Shown here: positions 2,571-60,070 of the stretch, piece after piece | Layout of the letters: each line of letters opens with the position of its first letter | Numbering within the stretch: position 1 is the stretch's first letter | DNA from: Euglena gracilis | Taxonomy: Eukaryota | Reading direction: 5' to 3' | Length of the DNA: 64,000 nt | Assembly: GCA_039621445.1 (NCBI GenBank) | Contig: CP154954.1 | Span: 12,208,716 to 12,272,715, forward strand | The notes under the pieces: generated by a model | What the model was told of the DNA's origin: nothing | What the model saw: only the letters and a program-made list of their open reading frames with translations | The model's database searches: none | Made by a program: the position numbers and the translations under genes

Positions 2571-2656
2571 ACCTGATAAGGGAAGGGGTTATGTAGGATC
2601 TTCCCCTCCCCCCTCAGACGTCCTTATACGTTCCTTTCAAAAGCACCCAAGAAATA

Positions 2657-4426: not shown

Positions 4427-5280
4427 AAAAAACTGGGAAATGTCAAAAGATATGACTCAGCCTTCAGGACATTGGTGGTCCAATTGTTGCACAAAGGGGT
4501 GCCCCTGCAGGACTGCACAGTCCACAGGATGGCTGAGCCACAGGATGGCCATCCTTGATCTTGCTGTTCACAGCCTCAACACTGCACGAAATGCATATGC
4601 AGCAGCTTTATTACTCCCAGGGTTTGGTTCATTGAGGTTTTCCCCTCTTTTGGCTCCTTTGAAAAGGAAATGGAATTCCAATGTCTGCAAGTATGCCCAT
4701 TTTTGGGACCCCGCTTTTTTCCTAGAAAACATCATCAGGAAATCAAATCCCCTCTCAGACCTATCTTTGAAAGAGCTCAGAAATAGACTCATCCTCTGTT
4801 GGAGGCTTTTGGCCCTCCACAGGGGGGTTGATCTACCCAGGACACCGCGAAAAATCAGTTTCGTGGGAGAAAAAATTTTCATTTTATTGCAAAGGAAGGG
4901 GTGGCAATTCCCAAGACGGGAGGAAATTTTGAATTTGCCACACACACCCCTCATAAGCCCCTGGCATTTATTGAAAGAGTATGTGGAAAGTACAGCCCAC
5001 AAGGTTGGGCACAAAAATAATTTGTTATGGTATTTGGATGGTAAAAGACCTTTGACTTCAGAAAGAGTGAATTCCCTTACCAAAGCAATTCTGCAAGAGG
5101 GGGGTGGACACCACCCACTGGAAACCCCACAGCACCAGAGGGGCTGGGGTTTTATGGTGGAAGAATGCGGGGTTGGTAGTGGAAGAAGTCCAGCAGCTGG
5201 GTCAGTGGAAAAATTTTGGGGCCTTCCAAGCTCATTATTTTTGAGGCTGGGAGTCGTACCAAAGATTCAAAATATTATGG
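4380..5280 (+). pseudogene. DIRS tyrosine recombinase (frameshifted)
   Basis: LALHRGVDL (Arg), KPHSTRGAG (His-x-x-Arg), GQWKNFGAFQAHY (Tyr) across shifted frames. Confidence 0.88.
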
Positions 5281-5812
5281 CCCAAAGGGGGGTGCACAGT
5301 ACCTCACCATCTCGCAGTGCGGAGCCCGAATGGTCTCGGACTCCCACGACACAGGAAGTGTGAGGAAGGCACCAAGAGGGCGAAGCACAAGAAGATGGTG
5401 AGCCCAACCCCCCCACTCAAAAAAATCAGCAGAAAACGGACAACATCACAACCAGAAAGGGGCCCCCAACCAAGCAGCCCCGACCACCCACCCAGAAACA
5501 CACCGGAAAGAGACAGCCTCCCCCGTCGAGGGGTGGGGGAGGCACCAAGCAACCAGGTGACAAGGGGGGGGGACCACAACGGTTCAGCTTCGCCATGGTG
5601 TCGGGGCCTCATCATCGCCAACTCCGGCAACAAAGGCGCAGTCAGAAGCACCCCCCGCGCACACACAAACACACCAACAGCCGGCAAGGAAAGCAGGACA
5701 TTACCATCTTCTTGTGCTTCGCCCTCTTGGTCCTTTCCTTCCCCTTCCTGTGTCGTGGGAGTCCGATTTCAACGTGTGACGGGCCGCGTTCCGGGTCCAA
5801 ACGTTTTTGCAG

Positions 5813-5897
5813 TGCCGGACGGAGTCGTGCCGATGCAGGAGTTTTTGAGGCGGGGAGGGGCGCCACCCATACACGCCTACCTGTTTCAAAAGTCGCG
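5813..5897 (+). CDS. Candidate internal exon of an unknown + strand gene (VPDGVVPMQEFLRRGGAPPIHAYLFQKSR)
   Basis: Open GC-rich segment between ttttgcag| and |gtgcat. Confidence 0.4.
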
Positions 5898-8800: not shown

Positions 8801-8941
8801 TACAAATGGACACAACCATAAAACTCGGCGGGCCAAGGAACCCACAGACAGGGTTGCTGGGTGAGCAGTGCAAAGCTAAAACAGCACATGCCCAAATCAA
8901 ACTGCGCCCAAAACAAAAACACACAACTGGATCAGGCAAAG

Positions 8942-21700: not shown

Positions 21701-22959
21701 CTGGGTGGGTCAACTCCTCCTCCTGTGCAAAGGAAAATCTGGAACTAAGCTGGAAAATATATCGAAATAATTGGTTGTTAGCAACGCACCCCGGAGCAGG
21801 GTTCGATATAAGGACAGGTGGGGGGGGGGGGGGCGGGCCCCCCCCCCCCCGGCGGGCCAGGGGGGGGGGGGGTGGGGGGGACACACCCCCACCTAAACAG
21901 GTGCGCGGTCAGGGTGGCCGAAAATTTTTGACCCCCCAAAACGACCAAAAGTGCCATTTTGGGCACTTTTTGGGCAAAAATGTGCCAAAAATGCAAAAAA
22001 TTTTCGGCGCGAAGCGCCGGAGGAAAAAATTGGCCCTTTTTGGGGGGGGTCCCGGGAACCCCCCCGAGGGTCGGTCCGGACCCCCTGGCAGGTGGGGGGG
22101 GGGGTGGTCCGGACCCCCCCCCCTGCGGGCCAGGAGGGGGGGGGGTGGGGGGGACACCCCCCCACCTAAACCATGTACGCCCTCCTTATATCAAACCCTG
22201 CCCCGGAGTATTTTCTGAAAAATTGGCAAAAAAACAGATGAACATGACCTTGCGCCAGGGAAGAAAATTCTTTGTTTTGGGGGTGTCGAAGAAAAATAAG
22301 AGCAGAAATTGCACATGCCCAACGACCATGTCTTTCAACCAAACTGTTCATTGGACAGTAAAATAGCACCGAATCCCTTCACAAAACACTCCAAAATTAA
22401 ATTGCCGATTATTTCGGTGCTTGAAAATTTATTACACTTGGCTTGAAAAGTATTGACTTGAACATAATTCTCCCAATTTCTGTGCTTCCGTCAATACAGA
22501 CAGCATGTCTGGCACACGCGCCAGGTTGCACAGACACTCACCACCACTCCTCCCCCACGCAGAACACACTTGCTCGCACACTCACAACTGAATCAGTCAC
22601 AGCCCCTGGCCAACGCCCGGCCTTGCTCCAGCTGCAGGCGGCTCCACATGGAGTGTGCATCCGGGGGCGTCCCTGCCGGGCCGGCCACCAGCTGCCGGAA
22701 CCGGTTGAGGCCATCGCCCCCAGGTTGGTGGGCCCGACAGGGGACAACGCGCGATGCCAACAACCACAGAGAAGCAATGAACTTATGGCCACATAAAAAC
22801 GAAGGCCATTTCATTGGTGTTGAAATTCTTTCATGTTTGACCGGGGGGGTCCCGGAGTATCCACTCACTTTTCCCCCAAAATGGCCAGAAAATTGCGAAA
22901 ATGCTAAAAATAGCACCTTTTCAAAAAATTAGGCACCTTTGGTGCGAAAAGTATATCCC

Positions 22960-22997
<38 letters not shown>

Positions 22998-25900
22998 AGG
23001 GGGTCGAAGACTAAAAAAAACTCCTGTTGGTGCGCTTGCACCCTCCCCCTCCACTCCTTACTGCCTTTCTTGCGCCCCGCATCGTCACTGCCCCTGGAAT
23101 GATGGGCACATTTGTCGTTGATGACAGCCCTCCTCCGGCCCCACATCGTCCATGCCAACCCACATGGCACTGATCAACGCACGCCGTTCGTTGGACCGCC
23201 AGGGCTGGGGCAGCGATGGGCGGAGGTGGGCGTGCGGGAGGAGAAGAAGTGGATCAACCGATGGTGCTTGTGGAACACCTGGAAGTAGCGGCTGTCGAAG
23301 GGGTACGCCCCCGCGGTTCGCCTGTGGCTGACATCAGGGGAGCCACCCCCCCCCCCCCCCTCGCACCCCTGTCATGTGTGATTGGGCTGACTGAGGAAAC
23401 AGACTGAGACTAGGGGGGAGGGGGCAGCAGCTTGAAACAAAATGGGCTTGCTGGAAAATGACCACTGCCTGTCCCCCCCCCCATCTTTTGGTTGGTTTAC
23501 TCTGTTACAGACAAAGGCATTTCTCTCCAGACGACCTTTCACAGCATCAGAAATCGCTCGATCGAAAAAAAGGCCTCCCAGCTAGGGGTTTCCTGAGACA
23601 CAAATGACTCCCACTACTCCCACATTTGGCCAAACATATTGTAGCCTTCTTTCCAGATTAATGCTCTGTTGGGTGTGAGTTTCGCTTTTATTACGCTTGC
23701 CCTCCTCCGGAAATTGTCACCTGACAAGTCAATCAGTGAGCACCAGACAACTCTCAGGGCTGGCCAAGTTGGGTTTCCTGGTTTTCCAAAAGGACAAGTC
23801 AGAGGTGCAGTCAGGCAACTCACCAGGGAACAAACCTCCCTGGCAGGCCAGCCACTTCCAGGATTGTGGTAACTTCCTGTGATGACAGACATCCCTCCCC
23901 TATGCGAGGATAATAACTTGTTTAACCCGTTGGAGCCATTGGGTTCTGTGCCGCATAAATATTAATACATGTCAACTATCGGAAAACTTTAGAATTATGC
24001 ATCGAACGTAACTCTTAAGATGTCCGCCGTGCTGTTTGGGGTGTGTTGATATTTCCTCGACTCTCCCTCTCCAAAAAAAAATCACATACTGCAGACGGCT
24101 GTGTCGCGAAATATTTAGGGGATTGAAGGGGAATAAAAAATGGTGTTGGTGCTAGGGATCTGGCAATGAGACTGAGAAATTATCAAAGCTTGATCCCCCT
24201 CACCCAAAAAGTCCTCACGGGTGCATGCTGTCCACTGCAGTCCTGCAGAAAACCACATTGCTGTTATCAGTTGCTTTCAAAGCAATCAAAGAAAATATCG
24301 AAAACATTGGACATGCAAGCGGCAGGGTATAAAATTTTGGTTCTGGGGTTCTCTGGAAGCCCAAATCTCCACATATCACGGCTCCAAAGGGGGGTCAGGA
24401 CCCGGCGGGTCAGACCTCCCTCCCACATTGCAAACAAACGCTCACCTCGTACCCTACCCCCAGTCTGCGAGAAGACAAACCGCGATCACAAGGGAGGGTT
24501 GGATAGACACCTCATTGATTGGGACAGAGAGGCGCTGGCAGCCTTTGGTACTGTGCAATGGTAACGTTTGCAATTTACGTTGTGATGTAACGATGCAATT
24601 TTGCAATTCATGTTCTTCGGAATTGCTGAAGTATATCTTGCTCGAGGGCACTTATGTTGAACATCAAGAATGGTGCAAAAAATCTATAAAAAAAAGACTC
24701 TTTCTCTATTGTTATCATGTCAAATATCGGATAAGCTGCAGGCATAATTCTGAGCAGGGGTTTCTTGAACACTCAGGGGGGGGGGTCCCACCGGCCAGGT
24801 GGGAAAAAAGGGTGTTGGCTGGAACCTTGGGGGGGGGGGTCCAGCCGGCTGGCGACTGGACCTGGCTGGTGCCCCGAAAAGGCAGAAGAGTTCAAAAACC
24901 AGCCAGTTTGGCATTTTTTTCAGCCAAAATATGGAAATAACCCCCCCCCCAAAAAAATCAAAAATGCCATTCATTTTTTGCCGCCTTTTTACAAGAATTT
25001 TCGGTCCAGCCTGGCTTCGCTGGGCCGACCCAAACTTTGTTTCAGCGGACCCCCGGGCAGGGGCGGTGTCCTGCAGCCCGGCTTGGAGCTGTGGGCTGGG
25101 AAAAACGTGCTGGCTGGCTGGACCTCCCCCCCCCCCCGGTGGGTAAGGTCCCTGCTGAATAAAACCCTGAGTCTGAGCAAGGCACAAGGCACCTCCCTAA
25201 CAAAAAAAATCTCCCCATTTACAACCTCTGAGAATAAAATTTTTATTTCAAACCCTTCATCCTGGGTGCTTCCATTTGGCATCCAAAAAAGGTAAAATCC
25301 CCCTCTATGGAAATTCAAACAGGGGCACAACCCATCCCAGTGAACAGAAAGATTTCTGGGGAAAAAACATCATTTCAGATTTTATCATTATTTATCATTT
25401 TGTGCATTTCTGGTACCCGCCCCCCCCCCCAGGCAATTGTCGCGTAACAAATCGGGCAGCACGGAGGGGGGTGACAATTTCCCGGGGTGGCAATTTGGCC
25501 GGCACAGAGGGGGGCGTCAATTGCCCACCCATGTAGGCCACGTTAAATCCAAATGGCCAAGAACACCATCTGAAACACCAGTGAACAGGCAAAAATGCAG
25601 CTATGGTTGTGATATTGTGCAGAGCATTTGGTATGTGACATTTCTCAGCACGTTGTAGCGAAATAGAGGATCAATTGAGTCGTGTCGGTGAAAAGAAAGT
25701 CCACAAACATCTTCTGTGGGGGGAGGTGACAAATCGGGCAGCATGGAGGGGGGTGACAATTTCCCGGGGGGATAAATTGGGCGGCACAGCCAGGGGTGAA
25801 AATTGCCCGGGGGTGTCAATTTCCCGGGGGCGTCAATTGCCCGGGGGGGGGGGGGAATAAATTTGCCTTGACCCACATAAAAAAGGCGCCAAACTGGAAT

Positions 25901-28628
25901 TTAGCAAAAAAAACAAAGTAATTGCATTGAAAAATGCCTTTTAAACTGAACTACAAATCCCTCATCAAATTCCCTTGAAGGTTCAAAAACCCTGAGGCAC
26001 AAATAAACACCAAAAGGGGGTCAAAAATTCTCAAATTCTGCGCACGGGAGGGGTCCGACACAATAACACCAAGAGGCCGGGCTCTGCCCGTCGGACTTTA
26101 CCAGCTCCAGGCGCGTGGGCGTCACCGTGGCGCACGCGACCTCATTCCGGCCCGGGTGCCCCACGTCCTTGATGACGACCATCGTCTCCTCAAACAGCAC
26201 CGGCTCTGGCTGCGTCTGCACCGGCGCCGGCCGGGGGGGAGGGCCCCGGGGGGCGGCGGGTACAGGGCCGCGCCGGACCGAGTCCCGCACCCGACCGTGT
26301 GGAGTCGCGGAAACAAATCGCAAAAAAAAATCGCAAAAATCGCGAAAAACCTACCATGATGCATAGTGCACAGTCTGCTGATCGCATTGCAGGTCGAAAT
26401 CCGCCGACAATTAGGTACCGACCACCCCTCCCCCGGAAACTGTCACCTCACAGGTCGGTCAACACCGGCACCCTGATGGGTTCTATGATGGCAAGGTTGG
26501 CCGGTGCCGACGACTCCGACAGTTTCCCGGGTGGGCCATCTCCAGGAAAACTTAATGGGATTCAACCCTGGCTGGCACCCGGAAGACTATCCTCCGCCCC
26601 TAAAAAGCCCTATGAGAGAGGAAACACGATTTTAATGGAAAAAAGCAAAAAAAATTGCTGAGTACAGTGGGAAAGTGCGCACCCCTGCAGCCAGAAGTTG
26701 TGAAGTTGGAGACATGTCGGCGAGTGCAAGTCCAGTTGACAATTTCCAGATTTCTGGGTTGGTGGAAGAGACGATCGCAGAGTGGTGTTCCTGGGGAGGG
26801 CGCATGGCTCTGCCCCCCATAAAGCTGTCACCTGAGCACAAGCCTGGGTAACAACTTCCCAACATTGCAAATCAGCGAGTCCGGGAATGGAAGGTGGTAA
26901 CTTCAGGGGGGGGGGGGTGACAGCTTTTGGGGAACCTAGTTTCGACCCAAATAAAATCTTTTTTGATGATGGGACGTGTGTCTTGCATTTATTTGGATGT
27001 GCATGTCAGGTTTTGGCAAAAACACACACACAAACACACGGCGCGCACACGCATGCACGCACGCACGCACGCACGTTGTATTCAGTCGAGCAGGCCGAAT
27101 TTATGCAAAAATGAATTAAAAAAAATCCTGATCCCCCGTGAGAGGCATCAAAAAAACATTTTCGACGTTGTTACTCAGCAGGTGCGGCCCCAGGTGATAC
27201 CTTTCCAACATGGCAAGTCCGCCAGTACAGCCCAAGGGGCTTCCGGAACACGAAGGCGACTGGAAACCCCAAAGGGGGGCGGGGGCGTTCAATGCTTCGA
27301 GGAGCGACAGTTGTTGAAATTCATGTTCAAAAATGTATATATAAATATGAGTATATAATATAAAAAATATATATTTTCAAAAAATGTGTGTGTGCCAGAA
27401 GCGCCATGCCCCTGCTCGGGGGGGACAGCCACTGGGGGGCGCTGGCTTTCGACGGGGGCCACGGCGGCTCCGGCAAGCGACTGGGGTCGCTTGCCAGGCT
27501 CCGCGGGAGGTCGCGAGGTCGGCCCCGCGGGCTTCACGGGCAGGGGCGTCGGAAAGGTTTGAAGGGGTCAGCCCGACTGCACGTGTTGCCCATTCCACGT
27601 GGGGAGTCCGACATCACATCATCCATTTACGGCAAACCCAAAGAATAACACCCCCGTTGGATTGAACTCAAGCTTGAATTCAGGCCCAATGGACCGATAG
27701 ACATTGTTAGTGTTCCACCCCATCCTTGCGCATCACTTGCTAATGTTGCCAGAATGTGGGGTGAACGCCGGAAACGGTGACTCCCCCCAAATACCCCCCC
27801 CCCCCCCGAGGCCCGACTTCGGTGGCCCATACAATACCCCCCCCTCAGCAGTGCGTGAAGAAAAACCACCAAAAGTATGGCAAGATATAAAAAAAAGACG
27901 AAATCTGGTCAGAAAAATGTTTCACAAAAATATTTGAGCAAATATTGACTTTGAAACCAGTGCCCAAAATTCCAAACTCCCCCAAATAATACCTGTGGGA
28001 GGTCAGACCCCCCAGTTCAGTTCACACCCATATGCTTCCGACCCCGGTCAACCCTGGATGCCGGAGGGCCTGTGGGAGGCAGCTTGGGGGCCGGCGGGGC
28101 GACCGCGGCCACCGCTGGACGCCCACCATCCGTTTCCACAACTAGCCAGAGAACGATTGTGAATGCAGTTATTCATTTTATTCTTTCATTCATATATATG
28201 GCAGCCTCCAACTAAAGGGACCCCCCCAGGGGGGGTCCCTATAATTGGATCAGGGGGTCAAAATTAATAATTTTTTTGTGTTAATGATGGAATAGGGTTA
28301 GGTGCGCGACTTAGGGTTAGGGTAAGGCCCAACTTATAGACGGGTGTTAGGTGTACAAATTAGGCCTGAAGTTAGGCCGGAATAACACACCTAACCCTAT
28401 TCCATCAATAACACAAAAAAAAATTGCCGCCCCCTGATCCAACTATAGGGACCCCCCTGGGGGGGTCCCTGTAGTTGGAGGCTGCCATATATCCATATAT
28501 CATATATCCACATATATGGATATATATATATATATATCACCATATAACCATATATCCATATATATGGATATATATACATATATATGTCCATATATATGGA
28601 TATATATACATATATATATATATATATA

Positions 28629-28660
<32 letters not shown>

Positions 28661-30121
28661 GTATATGTATATATATCCATATATATGGCAGGTGAGAACT
28701 TTAGGACCCCCCTCCCGGGGGGGGGTCCTAAAGTTCTCACCACAATGGCCACCCCCATTATTGAGGGAGCAGGGTTAGGAGCGCACATGCTAATTTGCGC
28801 TAATTGGCTATGTTGCGCTACATGGCTATGTTGCGCAAACATAGCCATGTAGCGCAACATAGCCAATTAGCGCAACATTGCATGTGCGCACCTAACCCTA
28901 ATCCTTCAATAATGGGGGTGGCCATCGTGGTGAGAACTTTAGGACCCCCCCCCGGGGGGTCCTAAAGTTCTCACCTGCCATACCCGCCCCCCCCCGGGCA
29001 ATTGTCACGCGACAAATCGGGCAGCAAGGAGAGGGGTGACAATTTCCCAGGGTGACAATTTGGCCGGCACAGAGGGGGGTGGCAATTGCCCGGGGGCGTC
29101 AATTGCCCGGGGGCGTCAATTGCCCACCCATGTAGGCCACATGAAATCCAAATGACCAAGAACACCATCTGAAACACCAGTGAACACGCAAAAATGCAGC
29201 TATTGGTTGTGATATTGTGCAGAGCATTTGGTATGTGACATTTCTCAGCACGTTGTGGCGAAATAGAGGATCAATCGAGTCGTGTCGGCGAAAAGAAAAT
29301 TCGCAAACATCTTCTGTGGGGGGGGGGGGGCGACAAATTGGGCAGCACGGAAGGGGGTGACAATTTCCCAGGGTGACAAATTGGCCGGCACAGCCAGGGG
29401 TGACAATTGCCTGGGGGCGTCAATTGCCCGGGGTCGTCAATTGCCCGGGGGGGGGGTATATATAAATATAGATAGTTGGAGACTTTAGTTGGAGGCTGCC
29501 ATATATCCATATATATACATATATGCATGCATGCATGTATGTATGTATGTATGTATGTATGTATGTATGTATGTATGTATGTATGTATGTATGAATGTAT
29601 GAATGTATGTATGTATGTTTGTATGTATGTATGTATGTATGTATGTATGTATGTATGTATGTATGTATGTATGTATGTATGTATGTATGTATGTATGTAT
29701 GTATGTATGTATGTATGTATGTATGTATGTATGTATGTATGTATGTATGTATGTATGTATGTATGTATGTATGTATGTATGTATGTATGGATGCATATGC
29801 ATGCATGCATGCATGCATGCATGCATGCATGTATGTATGTATGTATGTATGTATGTATGTATGTATGTATGTATGTATGTATGTATGTATGTATGTATGT
29901 ACGTACGTACGTACGTACGTACGTACGTACGTACGTACGTACGTACGTATGTATGCATGCATGCATGCATGCATGCATGCATGCATGCATGCATGCATGT
30001 ATGTATGTATGTATGTATGTATGTATGTATGTATGTATGTATGTATGTATGTATGTATGTATGTATGTATGTATGTATGTATGTATGTATGTATCTATAT
30101 GTGTGTGTGTACATGTATACT

Positions 30122-30196
<75 letters not shown>

Positions 30197-30198
30197 TT

Positions 30199-30253
<55 letters not shown>

Positions 30254-33200
30254 TTTGTTTTGTTTGTTTGTTTGTTTGTTTGGTTGTTTGTTGGTTGGTT
30301 CATTCATTCATTCATTCATTCATTCATTCATTCATTCATTCATTCATTCATTCATTCCTTCCTTCCTTCCTTTCTTCCTTCCTTCCTTCCTTCTTTTGTG
30401 CATCTATTTAACAAATTGTTCATTTATGCTTGATTTGTCTATCTATCTATCTATCTATTTACGTATTTGTTTATTTGTTTGTTTTTATTTGTGGCGGAAC
30501 CCAAAGGATGATCCCCGTAAATCACACAAAAAAACACTCCCAGGATGTGACCTTTAAAACCATGGGAAAGAAACAGCGGGGTGGTGCCTGGACAAGGATG
30601 GTGCTTGGACGGGGGGAGGGGGGTCAATGGGGGCCTGACGGCTATCCTTGTAAACCGGCATTAACACCCAGCCCCAACTCCCATGCACTCCAGGGACAAG
30701 GGTGCAGACGCTATCGGCCAGCGGGGGGCATCGGCTTCTCCTGCTGCCTCGCGTCTGAATTCTCTGGTGCATACAGGGTGCGGCCTGGGGTGAATGTGTA
30801 GTGGGGGTAGGTGGGGAGGGGAACAGGGTTTTTTTTGAAGACCGGGGGGGGGGGTCGGCACCCACCCACCCACCCCCTGGGGTGGGCTCCCCAGAGGGGG
30901 GGTCCCAGGGGACCCACCCACTTCGCCCGAAAATGGCCAAAATGCTAAAGATAGCATCCATTTCAAAATTTCGGCGCCTGCGGCGCCGAAAAAAGATATA
31001 CCCACCAGCCCCTGCCCCCCCCCCCCCCGGGGGGAGGGGGTCCAAAAGACCCACCCACCCTACCCCCCCCCCAGGGGAGGGGGTCCAAGACTAAAAAAAA
31101 CCCACTAGAGGGGAAGCAGGCGAAACGGTGGTTGGGTCGGTCTGATTGGGGGATGTCGACTCCGTCGAAAGCAGAGTTTCGAGTTCCATGACAAAAAAAA
31201 GACTCACAGGGTGAGGATTCAGGATTCGGGATTGGTGGATGACAGGAAACAGAAAACATTATATATATAACATATGCATATTATATATAATATAATATAT
31301 AATACAACACAAATAAATTATACATAATACATATATATATAATTTTATTTATAATAATATATTTATTCGTTTTATTTATAATATATATGATATGATATGT
31401 GTGTAAATATTACCCGCCACCCCCCCCCAGGCCATTGCTGCATGACAAATTGGGCAGCACGGAGGGGGGTGACAATTTCCCGGGGTGACAATTTGGCCGG
31501 CACAGAGGGGGGTGACCATTGCCTGAGGGCGTCAATTGCTCGGGGGCGTCAATTGCCCACCCATGTCAGCCACATTTTAAACCAAATGACCAAAAACACC
31601 ATCTGAAACACAAGTGAACACAGGAAAAATGCAGCTACGATCGCGATATTGTGCAGAGTGTTTGGTATGCAAAAATTCCAGCACATTGCAGCGAAATAGA
31701 AGATCAATCGTGTCGCGTTGGCGAAAGGAAAGTTCACAATACAATACTGCAAATGGGGGGTGACAAATTGGGCAGCACGGAGGGGGGTGACAATTTCCCA
31801 GGGTGACAAATTGGCCGGCACAGCCAGGGGTGACAATTGCCCGGGGGCGTCAATTGCCCAGGGGCGTCAATTGGAGGGGGGGGGGGGTATGGAACTTGCA
31901 TGGTTGAGCAATGAGAGCAGAGGAGCATGAGTAAAAGAAGTGAGTTGAGTCGATGGGCCTTTCCCACCCCTGCACATCCCTGTTGTTCGGCCCGGCCCGG
32001 CCCACCCTGGGCGTCTGCGACCGCCGCCGGGAGAACGGCGACTTGCCTGCGCTGCGCTCGCGGCTCGCGGACCGGAATGGGGACGTGGCACGGCGCCACG
32101 CCCCCTTCAGCCGCGCGCCGGTGGACGACGGCGTGGTGGACGTGGCCAGGCAAGGACAGTCATCCCCGGTTTTTGGTCTCCGGTGGGGTCCGGTGGGTTC
32201 CGGTGGGTTGCCTTGGGGGGGGGGGCAGGGTTGTATGGGAATCTCCGAGGGAGGGGGCGGGGGGGACACCCCTTCCGAAACTGGGGGGGGGGGGTGGGAG
32301 ACCCCCCCTCCTAAACCCCCCCAAATAATAAACCCCCTTGGGGTATTATTTTTTTCGCCCGAAGTCCCGGCCCGAGGGGGGGGGTATTATTTGGGGGGGG
32401 GGGGGGTATTATTTTTCCAAAATTTTCGAAATTTTTCGAAGTCCCGTAAAACCCAAAATAGCACCCAAAACCCCCTTTGGGGTCATTTTTTGCACTTTCT
32501 TGTGAAATTTACCATTTTATGGAGGTCAGATGAGCCAGAAAAATTGATTTTTTTCGTAATTTGTTGTCAGAGATTGTGGTTTTTACCGACATTTTCAGGT
32601 CAAAAATCTGGGCCGTCGGCCCGGAACAGGGGGGGGGGTATTATTTCGGCGGCCGAAGTCGGACCCCAAGGGGGGGGGGTATTATTTGGGGGGGGGCATT
32701 ATTTGGGGGGGGGGGGGTTACCTCCAGTTTTCAGTCGCCGAAAATTTCGCTTTTCGGGGTCAAAAGGTCTTTCTTCTGAAATTTCTCAAAAATGGTGGGG
32801 AATCAAAAGAAATGTCCAGTCCCTAAATTGAAGCCCTTAAAATGCCAGATCTAACAGTATTTTGCTTTCCTGGCAACTCCCCACCTGTCCCAATTTATGG
32901 TCATTTTTGACCATTTTGCCAAAATTTCATGTTGAGCCTCAAAAAAAGCCCTAAAATACACTCCCGGCGCGAAGCGCCAAAAATTTTTTTTGCCCCCGCA
33001 GAGGAAGGGGAGGGGGGTGAGGGAGGACCCCCTTCCAAAACTATGGGGGGGGACCCCCTCCCTACCACCTTACCCCCCAAGGGGGGGTGACCCCCCTACC
33101 ACCTACCTCATGTCTGCGGAGCTCCCGATACAACCCAATCCTTTTTGTCCCACATGAGTCACATTTTGGTTCTGTTTTATGGCCCAGCCAGGTGCTCAGG

Positions 33201-36200
33201 ATCTTTTGCCCCGTCGCCACGTGGGATCACCACATGATGTGATGTACTCACCCTGGGGCCGCCGGTTTCATCCACCCCAATGGCCACCAAATATTGGTCA
33301 TCGCGAATCATATCCTGCAACCCGTTTAAACCTGAAGGAAAGGGTCTTTTGAATAATCATAAAAAGGCAACCTGTTGTTGTGCATCCCTCTTTGCAGCAT
33401 GAGACTACGGAGCCATAAATCCAGAAGAAAAATCTGTGCATGGGAAAAAACCTCCGGTGTCCTTGCCTGAACGTGGCAGGGGGCTCCGAGGGGGGCTCAA
33501 AGGCGGGCCGGTGGGGCACAGCCATCCTCCCCCCAGGGAAATTGTTGCCGTGCCAGCCGGAGACCCTGACAGCTAGGCGGGGCCAGTTGCACATACTTGG
33601 AAAGTGGATTTCCTGGACAGATGCCCACCCTCCCCTGCGTGGCGTGACGGGGACAGGGGTGTGTGAATGTGGGCATGTGGATACGCGGAAAATATGCAAC
33701 TGATGCCATAATTGGCGATTTTCCGGACCCCCTCTTGCAAAGTCATTTCGGCCATCTTGGGCCCATTTAAAGGGCCATTTCGGGCCGTTATCGATCATTT
33801 TCCACCATTTTTTGACCATTTTCGAACACTTGGCCATCTTCGGGACATTTGGGGGCCATTTTAGTCAGGACCATTTTTGGGGCCATTTTTTGGCAAAAGC
33901 CATTCATAGGGTCATTTGGGGCTGAAAATTACCCAAAATTGCTATAAAAAAAACGGCTTACAATTGCCCAAAACGACCAAAATTAAAAATCCCAAACGTA
34001 TGGGAATATCTTAAAATAGTCAAAAATAAGCTGAGCTATTCAGGAATGGACAAATTTGCAACTGAAAACCTGTGAAAACCTCAAATTATGCACCAATCAG
34101 ATATATGTGCCCTTTGGTAAAAAAAAAAAATGCACAAAACAAATCCACCAAAACAAAAACACTCTTAGTTCATTATTTGGACACCGACTTTTATTAGACT
34201 GCGGGGTAAATATTTTGTAGATCACAATAAAATTTTCAAAACCAAACAAGAATGCCCATAAAAGCAGATCCCCTTTTCCTTTGCATTTTGGGGCTTTTTG
34301 CTGTCGTTTGGGCAGCCCGGGTTGTTCCTGGAGGGGGCATGTGGGGGGTATGCAAAACAGTGCTACAAATACAGTGCTAACAAGTCTACGCCCTGATACG
34401 TCCCTCCCCCCCACAGACCACCAGCCCGGGCGGGCGGCGGCTGCCAGGCTACGATGCGGGCCACGATGGACTCGTACTTCGCTACGACCTCCTGGAAGCT
34501 GCGGGCAGCCGTTTGGTGGCGTGCACCGCCAGGGAAACCGCTTGACGAGGTGAGCACACCAATCCCACTACCAAAAGCGTCCCATCCCATCCAGAGCAGG
34601 TGGTTTGAAGGGGAATACTCATGGGGGGGGGGATGCAACAATGCCGCTCAAAATGCGCTACGCAAAAAAATGAAAATTAAAAAATTTGAATGCAAGGGAA
34701 AAAAACGGCGACGGTGCAAGTGGCATGTAACTTACCCAATCCCATTGCATTCTGAATGACACATTGTCGTGGACGGAAGGGGTAATTTGGGGACTGTGAG
34801 AAAGCATTTAGAAAGCGACGGGAAAGCAGCGCTCAAGAGTGATGCACAAACAAGGGACAGCAAGGAGTGCAAAATGGCTGTGTGGAGACGTCCAGAAGGT
34901 AGAATTTGGCACCGGGGGTGGTGACGCCGGACTTGATCCCGACTTCGATGGAATACGGCATAGGGGGGAGGGGAGGCCAGATACTCTCAGATACACGCAA
35001 ACGGACATGCCATACATCGCCAGCTGCTGTAATTGTTGAGAGGATGAGTGAGTATGCGTGCAGCTGTGTGAAAGATTCTGTGTGTTTGGACTGTGTCTCT
35101 GCCCAATCTCTCGGCCAGATCCCATCCCAGAAGGTATCCAGACGTGGCAAAGTTTTTCCTTCCCTGCAATTCCCTGATTTTGGGGCTTGTTTCTCAGCCC
35201 CTCTGCCCCATAGGAGGGTTTAGCCGAGCCAACTTGTAACCGTCTGCACCACACAGTCAGCAGTTGAGGACATGAACAAAGGTCCCTGTCCTGTCTCTGC
35301 TCCTGTCTGCTCGTGTGTTACACCTGACGATGCTGCCCTTGAGTCAAAGACCAGAACACAAACCACACACCGACACACCGACCGACAACACACTCCTCAC
35401 AGGCAGAAGCACACTTCCGAGCCCCCCACAGAACAGAGGGACATGGGTGTATAAAAAAAAAAACACCCCCACAGAGGGCTAAGCTGATCACTAAAACCCC
35501 ATGTCATCATTTTCATATGTCCCAAGTCCAGCCACAGAGGTGGACTGTTCTTTGCTTTTGCTGCACAACTGGTGTACCCCCCCCTTGTCCTTGACACGCC
35601 AAAGTACAGGCAAAATGCGGTTGACACAGGGGGTGTGTCATGGACATGCCATGTCATGTGCACTGTACCATAATAAATTGGCATTTTGGGTCGGGAAAAG
35701 TGCGGTTGACACGGGGGGGGGGGAGGGGGTGCCATGGACCAGCCATCTCAAGGACAAGCGGGGGGGGGGTACCTTTCATATTAAAAAAAAACAATTACGA
35801 TGTTGGTCAGGTTTGTTTAGCGGTTCTGGCGCCAGCAGGACCAGAAGCGGGCCACCCCTCGCCTGGACCCGCCAGGCCGGGTCGTTGCCATGCTGCTGGA
35901 GGAGGTCGTCCAGGATGCTGTACAGGCAGGCGTCGTCGTACAGCTCCACGCGGAGGTTCTGCTTCAGCTGCGAGAGGGGAGGGGGGTGTCGATCTCGTCA
36001 GGAAACACCCCAAAAATGACACCCGTGCCTTATTGTTGGATCCGATGCTGGAAACCACCTGGGTGGAGGTCGTTCGTTTTACCCCCAAATAGCAAAGAAG
36101 ACCCATTGCTGGCCCCATTTTTTTCTTGACCGAACCCGCCACAAATTATTTTGGGCCCCCGAAAAAACGCGAGAAAGACAGTTTGCACCATAATCCAATT

Positions 36201-39200
36201 GGGTCAGATTAAGGTATAACACAACACTTTTCTTAAAATCCCAAAAAAAATCAGATTTTTCCTCATTTTCATGTTCATAATTGGGGTTGGGGGAAAATGT
36301 GTAGGCAATTGTTAGGCTATTTGGAGGGGGGGGTTGGATGAGACCTGTTATGTCTGTGAGGATGCGACTATGGAGGTATGAGTTGGTGAGTGAGTGAATG
36401 AGCGAGTGCGCACACTCACCTGTGTGCTTGTGTATGCTTAAGGATCTGTGTGTTTGTGTGATTTTGGAGGTGTATTTAATGCCCACCCTATGGGTCCAGC
36501 TCAGAGGTTGGCTCGCTGGGAAATGGAGAAATAAGTCCCCAGCAGTTAGGGGCCGAAAAACATCGTTTCGGGCAAAAAAATTTTTCGATTTTTTTCGACT
36601 TTTTTGACCTGTTTTGACCCAAAGTCTATGGCCCAAAACGGGGCGCCGGGGGGGTCGAAAAACGCTCATTTTCGGCTCGAAAACAGGTTTTCCAGGTCTG
36701 GGAGGCCAAAAAAAAACATGGTTCCGCAAAAAAAATCGATTTTTCTCAACTTCTTTTGACCCGAAAATGGCCCAAAACGGCTAAGTCAAATTAGGCCAAA
36801 ACTGTACAAAATGGCCAAAATCGGCCGAAAAAAAATTGCCGCAACTCGGGCTGGGCGGGGAGTTGCGAGGAAATGAAAATACTGTTTGATGGGGCATTTT
36901 AAGGGCTTCAATTTAGGTCTCCAGACATTTCCTTTGATTCCCCCTGAACAAGGGTTGAACTGGGTAGGAAACCCCCGGAACTGCAAATAGTCCCCAAATA
37001 TTAAAATTTTCTGCGAAGGTTGTTTGTTTGAAACTGGAAAGCCCATTTCCGACCCATTTCTGTCCACAAGGCACTGGAAGCAGCAGGCAGGAATATTAAT
37101 TTGTCCACGGGGGTGGAGGGAACAGGGCTAAAACCACACACACCACACGCACACACACACACACACATAATCCATTAAATCATAAACCGGGGAGAAAAGG
37201 GTGAACGTGGGGACCAGGCGCAATATGGAACAAAAAAAAATTAACAATCTGTAAAAAAAAATCTTCAAAACAAAACACATTATCGGAGCCATTCCCTAGT
37301 TGCATCAGAGTTTGCAGACCTGAGGCAGGGCAGTTAAGGGACCTGAGGCAGGGCATACCACAGCTTGTGGGGTCTCCACTTGCAAAATGCGGACGAAGGG
37401 GGACGGGATCCGAAACTTGTGCGAGCCCAGCGCAACGACGGAGTCATAATGATTGAGATCAGTGGCAAATATGCTTACATTGAGGTGGACGACGTTATTG
37501 AAAAGCGGTGTTATCATCTTGGCATGCACGAGCAGTTGGGTTCACAAGATTCACGGGAAGCGTTGCAAAAAAAGCAGCTGATTGTGAGGACATGTTTACC
37601 GATGCAAAAATATGTCATCAAAGACAAAATATTTTGCAGTGGACAGCTTGAGGTACATCACATTTTTTTTAAATATAAATAGTTTTCAGTTTAAAAGAAA
37701 ACATATCTTTGCACTGTTGTCCTTTCAGGATTTTTGGTTTCCTGTTCAAAGACTTTTCCTGGTTACTGTTCAAGTTAGTAATTATTATATATTTTTCATG
37801 GAATTATGGAGTAACCCTAAATCCAGCTACCGGAAATATCTGTCCTCCCAACTGGGGGGGGGGGGGTTGACATAGGGTTCTGACCAAAAAGGTGTCCTCC
37901 AAACGAGGGTCGGTTGTTCGACAAGGTCCAAAAAAAAGTCCGCAGACTGGGGGTACGCAGGACCACCCCCAAAAGGTCAATTTTTTCAGCACTTGCCAAA
38001 ACCTTTTGGCGTCTTTGATTTTTCTCCCAAAAAATGCTAAAATTTCATTTTTGGCCAATTTTGGGGGGCAGAATTTTTCAGCTCGGCGCTTTGCGCCACG
38101 CCAAAAAATCCGGCCAAAACATCCGAAAATCCGTTTCTGTCCGGGGTGGTCGTTAGAAGAAGTGCGTCGTTGGACGTAGGGGGGGATACCTTGATAACAA
38201 AAATTTCTAATGCATGGCACACCAGTCCGAACTTTGCTGTGATTCACGAGTTCTCTCTCGCACATGCCAACCGTGAACAAGTGAACTTGGAAGCTCTCAG
38301 CGATTTCCTCGCGCGCCAGCGGAGTTGCCACCGGCTTTGCCCGACGTACGCAATCAGCAGGGCGTTGCCCGCCGGGGGTCCCACGGAGGGGGACGGGTCC
38401 ATGTTGAACGAGCTGTTGTGCATGAACGGGGCCAGCCCCACTGCCAAACCCGCACCAATGACCCCGACACATCAGCCTGGTGGACCCCGAGGGCCAAACC
38501 CTGGAGGGGGCGTATCGAGAATTAGACCTCAAGACGGGACGTCCGGGGCAAGTCTGGGGGTCCCGCCAAGTTCACTCTACACCGAAATTCGGGGGGGAAA
38601 GGTTCTGTACAAAAATTGTATCGCAGACCGTGGTCGATGTGATGCGAGAGGAGGGGATGGTCGTGGCATTCCCTCCCTGGGGCTGCCATGACTCCGCGCA
38701 GGTCAGGGGGGGGGCAACCGTACAGAGATGCACAGAGTAGAGAGTGAACCAAAACCTCTGATGTGCCAGGCTCGGATTGTGAGGCCCTTCATAGAAAAGT
38801 TTAAATTCCCAAAGGGACATCTCTAGCACCGTTTTTTTTTTTGAGCTTCCTGCACTTTTCCATGCTAGGTGTTTTTCTGAGCGGTGGGCTCGTACACGAA
38901 TGGCATGAAGAATGTCTGCCGGAAACAGGATCAGCAGTGAGCAGGGTGTCGCCCTACAGCAAGCCCTTCAGGCAATCAATTATGAGAAACTTGGTCAGCA
39001 AGCTTTCACGTTGTGTCGCATCGCTGTATCCACAGCTGTCACTCTCCACTGTAAAATCACAGGCTTTCCCAAAAAAAATGGTCACCTGACCCCCCCCCTC
39101 GGATTCATTGTCCACAAAGTTTGCCTTCTCAGGCAGTCCCTTCTTTCGAAAAGCGTGAGCAGAAGGTGGCTGGGGGGGGGGTTAAGACAGAAATACCTGG

Positions 39201-41593
39201 GGCTGGGCAGACAAGCACGCCGCTGAAACTCATCGCAGAAGACGATGACCTCCGGCAGGCAGTTTTGGACGAAACCCAGGGAGAATTTTGACACTTGACA
39301 CTCCTGTGAGTGCAGGCCAAGCAATAACTTCCTCTGCCGACCCCCTCCCAGCAACGCATCGGACAAAACACATGAAACGCTGGAGCGAAACTCGACGTAT
39401 CCAGATTCTTTACACGCACATTCTCTACACTCTACACATTCTCTACACATATTCCGCCAGCGTCATCCATCCATCATCCGAGGTAATCCATCCAGACCGT
39501 TCAATAATTCCATCCCACCATAAAACATCAAAATATGGTTTTTCTTGACACTAAAATTTTTCGGCCCTGAACCGGCCATTGGCTGGCCCTGGCTATAGGG
39601 CAGTCCGCAAACTAGACCCCTGAACTGACCACAAAGCTGCCTGGGCTCCGGCAGGCCGCCCCACGCAACCTGCCCCGTCCCGAATTCCTTCACCTGGGGG
39701 CGGAGCCAGGGGGAGGGGGAACTCTGGGTCTGTGGAAAATGCCCTGCCGAGGGAGAGCATACGAGGTTATTCCGTTGGTGGGATGAACTCAGCCTGTCTC
39801 AGCAAACGTTTGCCAGCATCCTAAAGCAGTATGTACACACGAACCATGTTTTTAAAAAAAATGTTTGTCAATAATAAAGTTTGTTAAGTCGTAAAGTTTG
39901 AACATGCAAACACGTGTAAAAAGACAGCACACATCCAAAAATATCTTGAAGAACAACATGCAAAAAGAGATGCAGTATGTGAATCATCCATGCCACGAAC
40001 ACCCGTGCATCAAACATCCTCGGATGGGAATCCACGGAATTTTGGGTTCTACAGGTTGTTATCACCGACCCCGGGTGCAGGTACTCATTGAAGCTGCCGA
40101 AATCCATGATGACTTCCGCTTCGAAGAGGTGTCGATACGATTCTTGGGTCCGCATCCGGTGGAATATCCGTCAAGGCAGTGCCTCCCGGTGGGAAGGGTG
40201 TTGTGGCAGTGATGATAAAAAGGATGGATCACAAAAAGCCTTTCATCAAGCCAGACCAAGGGATTGAAAAAGGCCAAAGAAATGGAAAAAACCTCGTACC
40301 GAGGCAAATCAGATATTAAAAGTTAAAGAGGTGTAATATGTTGATTTAAAAAAAAAAAAAAACCATGACCGAAAAAAATTCAATAATATTTTGAAAAAAA
40401 TGCAAACCTTCAAAAAATCTGACAATGCAAATTTGTTCGCTGGAAAATCCTCACAAACGGGAAAAACATTGCTGAAAACATCCATTATCGCAAATATCTC
40501 CCAGAACTGTTCCCACAAGGGAGGTTCACCCTTTCCCATGCACTAAAAGAAACAGACGTCTTCAAAACCTCATTCCTGTGTGTTTTTCTGGGCTCCGCAC
40601 TTCAGCCCCGCGTGTCCAACGAAGCAACCAGGCGGGGGGTGGGGGCGGGGCAGGCAGCGGTCGCTTCACCTCCAGGGGGCTGATGGCAACATTGGCCTGG
40701 ATCATAGGTCCACTTAAACACCCGCCCAAATATAAAGCCCCCCCGGGCGTTATATTTGGGCGGGATTTCAAAACCCTCGGGGGGGGGGGGGCTTTTAAGG
40801 GGGGAAATCAAACCTTTCCAGGTAGCCTTCAGATGCAGTCAAATGTCAAATTACACACCAAAATTTGGTTGTTCACCTCCTATTTTACCCAAAAAATGTG
40901 TGTGTGTGTGTGTGCAATGTTTGTCTTAAAAATGGAGAAATTCTACTGGAAAACTGTTATATACCCAAAATTTTTCCTGAATGGGCTTTTCATCAAAGCA
41001 GCTTTATATTTGGGTGGCAAAAACAAACCGACTGGGGGATATATACTTGGGAGGGGGCTTTATAATGGGGGGGTGCCAGGGGCGGGCATTTTACCCCTGG
41101 CCCAAACCCACCCACCCTCTCTCGAAAAGGGGGGAGGCAAGTGAATCTCTGGGCTGGATTTCCAGCTGGTGGCTGAGGGCGCCGTAGAGGCAGTTGCCGT
41201 CCCCGGGGATGGGGTAGCGCATCAGCCCGATCATCTGCAGCTGCAGGCCGGGCCGGGTCCGCACGCCCCCCCCCCCCACTGCCGAAATCTGCCAACCTGT
41301 ACCTCCTGTGTGGTGTCACGTGGTGTCCTGTCCTGGTGGTGACCAGGTGACGGGGGAACCAACAAACGGGTCGTGCCAGTCCCCGGGTGTGGGAGAGGCT
41401 ACATTGGTGTCCAAAAACAAATCACAGGGGGGAATACGTGCGGGCACCAAGGCAAGCAAACAATGCATGAATGCATGCACACACCCACAAAAAAACACAA
41501 ACAAGACACACCCCCCCCCCCAACACACACACACACACACACACAACACACCCAACACACACACACACACACACCCAACACACACACAAACAA

Positions 41594-59600: not shown

Positions 59601-60070
59601 GTGCGGCGGCCGGTGGAGGACAGCCCCCGCGTGGGGCCAGGGCTGTGCGGGAAGGCCTGGCGCGGGGGGGGGGGGGGCGGTCCGACCCCCCACCACCGAT
59701 AGGGCTGCATGGATTCCCGGACAGCCCTGCGTGTGGCTAAGGGCCGAGCCCAGGCCGGTGCTTCAGACCACCATCAAGGGTGAGGGCTTCGGGCTGGCAT
59801 TCTCAGTACCAGGGGCCCTCCCGACCCCCTGTCCATGGCACAGAAATGCGCCACGAACGGGCCAATAGCACATGAGTGTGCCACCGGTACAAATGCACAA
59901 TAAAATAATAAGAATAATAATAATAATCATATAATAATAATATCATAATAATAATAAGAATAATATAATAATAATAATAATAATCATAATAATAATAATA
60001 TAATAATAATAATAATAATAAGAATAATAATAATAATAATATAATAATAATCATAATAATAATAATAATA

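What the first reader, a model, noticed from the sequence alone, without database searches (positions are those of the whole stretch)
32139..33477. An intron that still looks like an intact transposon: 12-bp perfect TIR plus 8-bp TSD
The + strand reads GACGTGGC-CAGGCAAGGACA (32139-32158) ... TGTCCTTGCCTG-AACGTGGC (33458-33477). Removing 32142-33472 (3 nt + element + 5 nt on the minus strand, Y|R at both ends) fuses EPPSEPPAT to [13 protein letters not shown] in frame. This is the clearest example of a TSD-flanked element serving as an intron.
Basis: partly seen in the sequence, partly recalled or inferred. Interest (0 to 1): 0.85.

Follow-up and report, generated by a model that had tools for sequence, protein, structure and literature searches.

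The report
Transposon-shaped Euglena-type nonconventional intron candidate
A 1.3-kb transposon-like insert sits in the middle of a likely exon and its ends match the published cutting rule for the unusual introns of Euglena-like protists, so it is probably a young intron made by a jumping gene, though no RNA data could be obtained to show it is spliced.

Summary
CAGGCAAGGACA (32147-32158) and its exact reverse complement (33458-33469) bound a 1323-bp insert. It is flanked by GACGTGGC and AACGTGGC, a 7-of-8 match rather than a perfect 8-bp duplication. Removing 32142-33472 gives a 227-codon stop-free minus-strand frame.

The insert splits a ~300-nt block with GC3 of 0.8-0.95. Other coding-like blocks in the window favour the minus strand.

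On the minus strand the insert reads GTT-CAG...CTG-GCCAC|G. That is the genetically defined splicing code of Euglena nonconventional introns, N3-CDG...CH'G-N5-6|R (PMC12501133), with Y|R at both junctions. The 3 + 5 spacer bases add up to the 8-bp duplication, so this cut restores the pre-insertion message.

The window holds an excess of CAG...CTG inverted pairs with in-register 8-nt flank repeats: 4 seen against 0.12 expected. Some lie in non-coding-looking DNA and two look related. This argues for a transposon class resembling hAT elements.

Not shown: splicing, exon status, host identity, or any second copy. The read-laying step gave no data, and protein databases lack this gene.

A transposon (MITE) origin of these introns is a published hypothesis, and an 8-nt repeat at a young one is in print. 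This is a new member of a known kind.

The parts
32139..32146 (.). Left copy of the 8-bp flank duplication, GACGTGGC. On the minus strand 32139-32141 would be exonic and 32142-32146 the 5-nt 3' intron spacer.
32147..32158 (+). Left terminal inverted repeat, CAGGCAAGGACA.
32147..33469 (.). Insert of 1323 bp between the TIR ends, 52% GC. No Pfam family reaches its cut-off in internal ORFs. It carries G-run/TATTATTT mini-palindromes, and a 113-nt piece (32797-32908) is 80.5% identical to 36831-36943.
33458..33469 (-). Right terminal inverted repeat, the exact reverse complement of the left one.
33470..33477 (.). Right copy of the flank duplication, AACGTGGC, 7/8 identical to the left copy. On the minus strand 33470-33472 would be the 3-nt 5' intron spacer and 33473-33477 exonic.
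32142..33472 (-). Predicted nonconventional intron of 1331 nt: GTT-CAG...CTG-GCCAC, followed by exon G. In the predicted RNA fold, nt 3-15 pair with nt 1327-1315.
   Evidence: code from PMC12501133
33473..33634 (-). Predicted upstream half of the interrupted exon (...[11 protein letters not shown]...EPPSEPPA). It is preceded by a C-rich tract plus CAG at 33635-33637. An alternative start at 33648 follows CTG-TCCCC.
   Evidence: boundaries are inferred
32006..32141 (-). Predicted downstream half of the exon ([13 protein letters not shown]...SQTPR), ending at AGG|GTGGGC.
   Evidence: boundaries are inferred

Best explanation
A non-autonomous cut-and-paste DNA transposon inserted into an exon of a minus-strand gene. 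It has a 12-bp TIR beginning CAGG and an 8-bp target-site duplication, so it resembles hAT elements. The genome behaves like that of a euglenid.

The element begins with CAG, ends with CTG, and duplicated 8 bp. The primary transcript therefore carries the exact signal of the Euglena nonconventional (non-spliceosomal) intron pathway.

Proposed steps at the RNA level:
1. The two TIRs pair and bring the junctions together.
2. The RNA is cut 3 nt before CAG and 5 nt after CTG, in front of a purine.
3. The exons are joined as ...CCTGCCAC|GTCCACC....

Since 3 + 5 = 8, this removes the element plus one duplication copy and restores the pre-insertion reading frame.

The spacer bases are free to vary under the published code, yet 7 of 8 still match their exonic copies. 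That argues for a young insertion.

Shown here: TIR, duplication, compliance with the code, predicted pairing, frame restoration, coding-like flanks, and a class of similar elements in the window.

Inferred: host identity, transcription, actual splicing and its exact sites, and transposon superfamily.
For: (1) Anatomy: a perfect 12-nt TIR and 7/8 flank 8-mers.

(2) Class support. Among 235 CAG...CTG inverted pairs with arms of 8 nt or more, 4 have in-register 8-nt flanks matching at 7/8 or better, against a mean of 0.12 in 100 simulations and 0-1 in shifted registers. With 7-nt arms and low-complexity flanks dropped, 4 of 376 pairs qualify, against 0-1 when shifted.

The elements, with flank identity, are:
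- 21797-22200, 8/8
- 47695-48170, 8/8
- 59638-59729, 7/8
- the target, 7/8
- 48623-49217, 6/8
- 39256-39643, 6/8
All six begin CAGG. The flanks of 21797-22200 are AT-rich, and no frame across the empty site of 47695-48170 shows elevated GC3. So the class also occurs outside exon-like blocks. 59638-59729 and 48623-49217 share termini.

(3) Splicing code. The minus strand reads GTT CAG...CTG GCCAC|GTC. This meets N3-CDG...CH'G-N5-6|R (PMC12501133: abstract and section 11). It also meets Y|R at both junctions and C at exon position +3 (PMC4770533: passages).

(4) RNA pairing. In the MFE fold of the 1331-nt intron, nt 3-15 pair with nt 1327-1315. The end duplex is -34.1 kcal/mol, against -17.7 +/- 3.6 in 500 shuffles.

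(5) Exon context. Removal gives 227 stop-free codons. GC3 is 0.8-0.95 from about 33600 to about 31990, with the insert in the middle. The wobble phase is continuous across the site.

(6) Strand. All 24 top-scoring coding-like 120-nt windows lie on the minus strand, including five regions not used for training. Clear minus-strand exons lie at 35.9 kb and 41.2 kb; the latter has an OTU motif (Pfam E = 0.02, below cut-off).

(7) Conventional splicing. No GT/GC...AG pair lies in the duplication register. The obvious conventional pair (33467|33466 with AG at 32106-32105) breaks the GC3 frame.
Against: - No RNA evidence was obtained.
- No protein in two large collections matches either the upstream exon half or two neighbouring exons. 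The gene is unannotated there and exon status rests on composition only.
- Position-specific base composition favours the plus-strand frame that shares the wobble position (log-likelihood 31.8 against 17.5).
- No second copy of the element exists in the window, so mobility of this particular element is not shown.
- The terminal pentamer CAGGC meets only 4 of 5 positions of the hAT motif YARNG.
- Frame-preserving conventional GC/GT-AG alternatives exist: 30 of 85 donor-acceptor combinations tested. An example is donor CAG|GCAAGG at 33467 with acceptor GAG| at 32178.
- No tool named the organism. The euglenid reading rests on C-rich acceptor tracts, GC3-rich exons, and the fit to the code.
Confidence: 0.55

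Rival explanations
1. A real transposon insertion that is not a working intron. Either the flanks are not an expressed exon (a decayed or unexpressed coding remnant, or a chance GC3 pattern), or the insertion simply disrupts the gene in this assembly or haplotype.
For: No transcript or protein evidence supports the flanks. Similar elements sit in DNA that looks non-coding.
Against: The insert sits in the middle of a ~300-nt GC3-rich block with the same wobble phase on both sides. That block is bounded by a C-rich tract plus CAG acceptor and an AGG|GT donor. The insert meets every tested feature of a splicing code shown to suffice for synthetic introns placed in an exon (PMC12501133).
Confidence: 0.25
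2. The insert is removed by the conventional spliceosome. It would use the GC-type donor inside the TIR (TTCAG|GCAAGG, 33467|33466) and an AG acceptor inside or beyond the left end, in the manner of a spliceosomal introner.
For: The TIR contains a good GC-donor consensus, CAG|GCAAGG. The other arm is pyrimidine-rich. 30 of 85 GT/GC-AG donor-acceptor combinations keep the frame open, for example acceptor GAG| at 32178.
Against: The first AG after the left TIR (32106-32105) shifts the reading into a frame whose third-position GC is the lowest of the three. The frame-keeping acceptor at 32178 is GAG, has no clean pyrimidine tract, and would add 42 nt of element sequence to the message. No GY...AG pair fits the duplication register.
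Confidence: 0.1
3. A nonconventional intron created without a transposon. Filler DNA would have been captured during double-strand-break repair, with the 8-nt repeat arising from staggered-end fill-in. This was proposed for the young gapC intron of E. agilis (PMC4770533).
For: An 8-nt direct repeat at a recently gained nonconventional intron was interpreted this way in print (PMC4770533, passage). No second copy of this element is in the window.
Against: A perfect 12-nt inverted terminal repeat is not expected from filler DNA. The window has an excess of CAGG...CCTG pairs with 8-nt flank repeats, including outside exon-like blocks, and two elements share termini.
Confidence: 0.05
4. Chance: an unrelated 12-nt inverted repeat that happens to have similar 8-mers next to it.
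For: 12-nt inverted pairs within 5 kb are common: 91 in the window and about 31 in simulations.
Against: The joint pattern has a mean of 0.12 per simulated window even with only 8-nt arms, and 4 are seen. The register is specific to 8 nt. The arms also start with exactly CAG.
Confidence: 0.03

Closest known systems
Euglenid nonconventional introns (Milanowski et al. 2014, PMC3935182; 2016, PMC4770533; splicing code of Nomura et al. 2025, PMC12501133)
   Same: CAG at +4..+6 and CTG at -8..-6. A 3-nt and a 5-nt spacer. A purine at the first base of the downstream exon. Y|R at both junctions. Intron ends that base-pair. No usable AG at the 3' end. Direct repeats at the junctions, making it a 'slidable' intron.
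   Different: Splicing is not shown here, and no tool named the host. The stem is a long perfect 12-bp TIR, and 7 of 8 duplicated bases survive. At 1.3 kb it lies within the reported range of dozens to thousands of nt.
Recently gained gapC intron 4 of Euglena agilis ACOI 323, with eight-nucleotide direct repeats at its junctions (PMC4770533, passage read)
   Same: A nonconventional intron with an 8-nt direct repeat, taken as a sign of recent gain.
   Different: There the gain was shown by absence in other strains and ascribed to double-strand-break repair. Here no empty allele could be examined, and the TIR plus sibling elements in the window point to a transposon.
hAT-superfamily non-autonomous elements (typical features: 8-bp TSDs and terminal YARNG; PMC3014272, passage read). 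Ds acting as an intron in maize (Giroux 1994) is known to me only from the reference list of PMC3935182.
   Same: 8-bp duplication. A short TIR beginning CAG. No transposase inside. Four of the six sibling elements in the window begin CAGGG, which is YARNG.
   Different: The target's fifth base is C (CAGGC). No hAT transposase was found in the window. Copy number is unknown. Other superfamilies also make 8-bp duplications; P and Merlin are recalled examples, not checked here.
Spliceosomal introners / introner-like elements (Micromonas, Aureococcus, dinoflagellates; Polarella classes with 8-nt TSD GHN6; bioRxiv 10.1101/2020.10.14.339549, passages read)
   Same: A TIR- and TSD-bearing DNA transposon that becomes an intron on insertion. 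The duplication makes removal restore the frame. It works in either orientation.
   Different: Introners supply or recruit GT/GC/GA...AG for the spliceosome. Here the element ends in CTG and no GY...AG pair fits the duplication register.

Membership tests
Euglenid nonconventional intron | CDG at +4..+6 and complementary CH'G at -8..-6 (3-nt 5' spacer, 5-6-nt 3' spacer) | tested here: met
   The minus strand reads GTT CAG ... CTG GCCAC. The rule is from PMC12501133.
Euglenid nonconventional intron | Purine at the first base of the downstream exon; pyrimidine|purine at both junctions | tested here: met
   ...CCAC|GTTCAG and ...GGCCAC|GTCC. The rules are from PMC4770533 and PMC12501133.
Euglenid nonconventional intron | Intron ends base-pair and bring the splice sites together | tested here: met
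   In the predicted MFE fold, nt 3-15 pair with nt 1327-1315. The end duplex is -34.1 kcal/mol against -17.7 +/- 3.6 in shuffles. This is a prediction only.
Euglenid nonconventional intron | No conventional GT/GC-AG borders at the position that restores the message | tested here: met
   All eight registers within the duplication were read by eye, and none gives GY...AG. One search shows frame-keeping GY-AG pairs only at other positions.
Euglenid nonconventional intron | Removed from pre-mRNA (as a circle, after conventional introns), with exonic flanks | not testable with these tools
   No reads could be laid on the stretch. The flanks are coding-like by GC3 periodicity, but no protein match exists.
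Euglenid nonconventional intron | Host is a euglenid (or diplonemid) | tested here: inconclusive
   No tool names the organism. C-rich acceptor tracts with CAG (compare PMC11170887), GC3-rich exons, and the absence of this gene from large protein collections are compatible with a euglenid but are not proof.
hAT-like non-autonomous transposon (MITE-like) | 8-bp target-site duplication | tested here: met
   GACGTGGC / AACGTGGC, 7 of 8. The register is specific to 8 nt across the class.
hAT-like non-autonomous transposon (MITE-like) | Terminal motif YARNG within short TIRs | tested here: not met
   The target begins CAGGC, matching 4 of 5 positions. Four of the six sibling elements begin CAGGG. 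The motif is from PMC3014272.
hAT-like non-autonomous transposon (MITE-like) | Multiple copies with the same ends and different flanks; a cognate hAT transposase in the genome | not testable with these tools
   No genome is held for this window. There is no second copy in the window. No transposase domain was found in 139 + 15 ORFs.
Spliceosomal introner | GT/GC/GA...AG splice sites supplied by the element and/or the TSD, so that removal restores the frame | tested here: not met
   The element ends in CTG, and no GY...AG pair lies in the duplication register.

The most novel reading that the evidence does not exclude
The 3-nt and 5(-6)-nt spacers of the Euglena nonconventional splicing code may be the footprint of an 8-bp target-site duplication. 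On this reading, the pathway is an RNA-level 'precise excision' system tuned to one class of CAGG...CCTG transposons with 8-bp duplications, resembling hAT elements.

This window would catch that class both as plain insertions in non-coding DNA and as young introns inside exons. It would turn the long-standing 'MITE-like origin' hypothesis into something that can be counted genome-wide.

I did not find the 3 + 5 = 8 link or a hAT assignment in the papers I read or in literature searches.
Probability: 0.35. Interest if true: 0.7.

Novelty: new member of a known kind. Interest (0 to 1): 0.45.

Why it matters
The papers read here still describe the origin of euglenid nonconventional introns as unclear. 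Those introns make up 71.8% of introns in E. agilis (PMC12501133). A MITE-like source is suggested only from their inverted ends.

A nonconventional intron that still carries a perfect TIR and a nearly intact 8-bp duplication would be direct structural evidence for that origin, especially beside sibling elements in non-coding DNA. It would also explain why the splicing code uses 3- and 5-nt spacers.

The idea becomes testable by counting such elements genome-wide and by looking for empty alleles between strains.

If the insert is not spliced, this is an ordinary transposon insertion in a repeat-rich genome.

Tried and rejected
- RNA evidence. The look-up of sequencing runs listed no RNA holder. 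Four 2026 RNA raw-read runs of the same species label were offered, but the read-laying step returned no data. Expression and splicing remain untested.
- Protein evidence for the exon. HMMER of the upstream exon half against 1.84 billion representatives gave 0 hits. Word-index searches with the OTU-motif exon and the 35.9-kb exon, set to longer proteins, gave 0 hits. The collections therefore seem to lack this gene altogether, and the blank says nothing about the exon.
- ESM Atlas: not available.
- Other copies. Self-BLAST of the element in the window found none. No whole genome is held. The left-end 20-mer in metagenome contigs gave 0 matches. The right-end 20-mer gave 1 match, in a 34% GC contig with similarity over about 30 nt only, judged chance. 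The phage collection gave nothing and was irrelevant.
- Paralogous empty site. The immediate flanks are single-copy in the window.
- Earlier findings of this scan: nothing relevant.
- Rfam and tRNA scans of the window: nothing.
- Transposase inside the element. 15 internal ORFs gave only a sub-threshold DUF6255 match (22.7 bits, cut-off 25). NCBIfam and PDB sequence searches gave nothing.
- Dinoflagellate introner reading. I considered this first and rejected it. The element ends in CTG, not AG, and no GH...AG pair fits.
- A candidate nonconventional intron linking the 35.9-kb exon to this exon (35868 to 33649, 2220 nt). It is frame-compatible and has the motif, but its end pairing is no better than shuffles (-25.2 against -23.7 +/- 3.3). 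I leave it as a guess.
- Extended TIRs. There are none beyond 12 nt.


Full report
**1. Observation**

The plus strand reads GACGTGGC-CAGGCAAGGACA at 32139-32158 and TGTCCTTGCCTG-AACGTGGC at 33458-33477. The 12-nt arms are exact reverse complements. They occur nowhere else in the window at up to 1 mismatch, apart from one unrelated 1-mismatch site at 8933. The arms do not extend further. The flank 8-mers match at 7 of 8 positions (G32139 versus A33470), so the duplication is 8 bp with one mismatch. Removing 32142-33472 (1331 nt) yields a 227-codon stop-free minus-strand frame that joins ...EPPSEPPAT to [13 protein letters not shown]....

**2. Chance**

A 12-nt inverted pair within 5 kb is common. 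There are 91 in the window, against a mean of 31 in 60 Markov simulations. The flank repeat carries the signal.

- Among 235 CAG-starting inverted pairs (arms of 8 nt or more, within 8 kb), 4 have 8-nt flanks identical at 7/8 or better.
- The mean in 100 simulations was 0.12, the maximum was 1, and 0 of 100 simulations reached 3.
- Sliding the right flank by +/-1 to 3 nt leaves 0-1 such pairs.
- One of the 4 (22997-30879) lies in G-runs and is probably chance.
- With 7-nt arms, within 4 kb and with low-complexity flanks removed, 4 of 376 pairs qualify, against 1, 1, 0, 0, 0, 0 in shifted registers.

**3. A class of elements in the window**

The qualifying or near-qualifying elements are:

| Element | Flank identity | Length |
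|---|---|---|
| 21797-22200 | 8/8 | 404 bp |
| 47695-48170 | 8/8 | 476 bp |
| 59638-59729 | 7/8 | 92 bp |
| 32147-33469 (target) | 7/8 | 1323 bp |
| 48623-49217 | 6/8 | 595 bp |
| 39256-39643 | 6/8 | 388 bp |

All six begin CAGG and end CCTG, with arms of 7-12 perfect nt (13 of the first 14 positions complementary in the best-matched pairs). The 92-bp and 595-bp elements align at both ends. They differ at matched positions of their two arms, so each keeps its own pairing. The flanks of 21797-22200 are AT-rich, and no frame across the empty site of 47695-48170 shows elevated GC3. The class is therefore not confined to exon-like blocks, which argues that these are transposons first.

The target has no second copy in the window. 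Its interior has no protein family above cut-off: one search covered the ORF 31944-32828, and one search covered 15 ORFs and gave one sub-threshold DUF6255 match.

**4. Context**

No whole genome is held, and no tool names the organism. The window is repeat-rich.

- A roughly 475-bp repeat has three copies, one ending 260 bp from the element.
- There is a degenerate reverse transcriptase at 2930-3814.
- There are long microsatellites.

Short GC-rich blocks with third-position GC near 0.9 recur every few kb. A position-specific composition model trained on three minus-strand exons scores 24 windows at 22 or above, all on the minus strand. Five of the regions involved were not used for training. 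Readable exons lie at two places:

- About 35866-35988, reading [32 protein letters not shown]. It is preceded by ccccctcccctctcgcag.
- About 41125-41244, reading ...[15 protein letters not shown].... The Pfam OTU match has E = 0.02, below cut-off.

C-rich polypyrimidine tracts with CAG acceptors are what PMC11170887 (passages read) reports for E. gracilis.

**5. The flanks**

By coordinate phase, the left flank gives 0.57/0.93/0.81 and the right flank 0.65/0.67/0.83, and the richest phase is continuous across the empty site.

On the minus strand the block is bounded by ...ccccgtcacgccacgcag|G (33635|33634) and AGG|GTGGGC (32006|32005). That makes an exon of about 298 nt.

There is a caveat. 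The plus-strand frame sharing the wobble position is also open (142 codons within the +/-240-nt flanks scanned). It also fits the composition model better, 31.8 against 17.5. I favour the minus strand for two reasons. Every other coding-like block is on that strand, and only that strand has plausible exon borders. Either way the cut described next works on both strands and gives the same joined sequence.

**6. What it matches**

Nomura et al. 2025 (PMC12501133; abstract, sections 5 and 11, and passages read) defined the requirement for Euglena nonconventional introns by knock-in genetics. It is 5'-N3-CDG...CH'G-N5-6|R(exon). Synthetic introns built only from these features were spliced.

Milanowski et al. 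2016 (PMC4770533; passages read) add three rules:

- a purine at the start of the intron and of the downstream exon;
- often C at exon position +3.

The minus strand here reads ...CCAC|GTT CAG GCAAGGACA...TGTCCTTGC CTG GCCAC|GTC..., and every one of these features is met.

In a ViennaRNA fold of the whole 1331-nt intron, nt 3-15 pair with nt 1327-1315. The 40-nt ends form a duplex of -34.1 kcal/mol, against -17.7 +/- 3.6 for 500 shuffles, the best shuffle reaching -32.7.

The element starts with CAG, ends with CTG and duplicated 8 bp, so the 3-nt and 5-nt spacers are simply the two parts of the duplication. The nonconventional cut therefore removes the element plus one duplication copy. The single mismatch (A33470) falls in the 3-nt intronic spacer, a position the published code leaves free. 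That 7 of 8 free or duplicated positions still agree argues for a young insertion.

**7. Conventional splicing as a rival**

No GT/GC...AG pair fits any of the eight registers allowed by the duplication (read). The TIR does contain a good GC-type donor, TTCAG|GCAAGG. The first AG beyond the left TIR (32106-32105) moves the reading into the frame with the lowest third-position GC. Of 85 donor-acceptor combinations tested, 30 keep the frame. The most plausible uses a weak GAG acceptor at 32178 and would add element sequence to the message. This rival can only be settled with RNA.

**8. Transposon family**

PMC3014272 (passage read) gives 8-bp duplications and terminal YARNG as typical of the hAT superfamily. 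The target's CAGGC meets 4 of 5 positions, and four of the six sibling elements meet all 5. No transposase was found in the window. I therefore call it hAT-like, not a hAT member.

**9. What is known**

The MITE-like origin of nonconventional introns has been proposed since 2014 (PMC3935182) and is repeated in PMC11282704, PMC12621601 and PMC12501133. The last still calls the origin unclear. TSD-like repeats at junctions are known, and 84.4% of E. agilis introns are 'slidable' (PMC12501133, section 5). An eight-nucleotide repeat at a strain-specific gapC intron is in print, where it was ascribed to break repair (PMC4770533).

My full-text searches found no paper that assigns these introns to a transposon superfamily or links the 3 + 5 spacers to an 8-bp duplication. 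Supplements were not read, and the library is incomplete. The finding is therefore a new member of a known kind, with a modestly novel class-level reading attached.

**10. What remains open**

Splicing and exon status are inferred, because no reads could be laid on the stretch. Protein collections lack this gene altogether: there were 0 hits for the upstream exon half and for two neighbouring exons. Neither copy number nor empty alleles could be examined.

My odds are:

| Reading | Odds |
|---|---|
| Transposon-derived nonconventional intron, spliced as described | 0.55 |
| Transposon but not a working intron | 0.25 |
| Conventional splicing at other sites | 0.10 |
| Break-repair origin | 0.05 |
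| Chance | 0.03 |

Noticed in passing
21797-22200; 47695-48170; 59638-59729; 48623-49217; 39256-39643: Five more CAGG...CCTG inverted-repeat elements of 92-595 bp. Their in-register 8-nt flank repeats match at 8/8, 8/8, 7/8, 6/8 and 6/8. The flanks of 21797-22200 are AT-rich, and no frame across the empty site of 47695-48170 shows elevated GC3. 59638-59729 overlaps a GC3-rich block.
   Followed up: partly
59638-59729 and 48623-49217: These two elements share both termini (CAGGGC....CGGGAAGGCC / GATTCC....GCCCTG). They differ at matched positions of the two arms (TGTG/GACA against AGAA/TTCT), so each copy keeps its own arm pairing.
   Followed up: partly
25414-25853; 28984-29456; 31411-31887: A repeat of about 475 bp in three copies (79-86% identity). 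Each copy carries a ~113-nt direct repeat near both ends. The third copy ends about 260 bp from the target element.
   Followed up: no
32316-32399, 32630-32720 (inside the element); 27783-27844; 52140-52177; 54211-54293: Small palindromic units of C-run + AAATAATA + ... + TATTATTT + G-run recur inside the element and elsewhere in the window.
   Followed up: no
1303-6053 (+), especially 2930-3814: Long overlapping open frames with weak reverse-transcriptase and RNase H matches (RVT_1 E = 2.2e-6, 28 bits, just below cut-off). This is probably a decayed retroelement.
   Followed up: no
41125-41244 (-): An exon-like block encoding ...[18 protein letters not shown]..., which resembles the catalytic-cysteine motif of OTU deubiquitinases (Pfam OTU E = 0.02, below cut-off). 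No homologue was found among longer proteins in the large collection.
   Followed up: partly
35868 down to 33649 (-): A possible 2220-nt nonconventional intron (GTC CAG...CTG TCCCC|G) would join the 35.9-kb exon in frame to the interrupted exon. Its end pairing is no better than shuffles.
   Followed up: partly
32054-32062 (-): A second CAGGCAAGT lies inside the downstream exon half. It resembles both the TIR start and a GC-type donor.
   Followed up: no
29270-30560: A tetranucleotide-type microsatellite tract of about 1.3 kb (ATAC/ATGC-like units) gives long spurious open frames on both strands.
   Followed up: no
33065-33226 (-), inside the element: A 54-aa ORF with a sub-threshold match to Pfam DUF6255 (E = 1.4e-4, 22.7 bits, cut-off 25). 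NCBIfam found nothing for it; the PDB sequence search, run on the overlapping ORF 33180-33356, also found nothing. Probably noise.
   Followed up: partly
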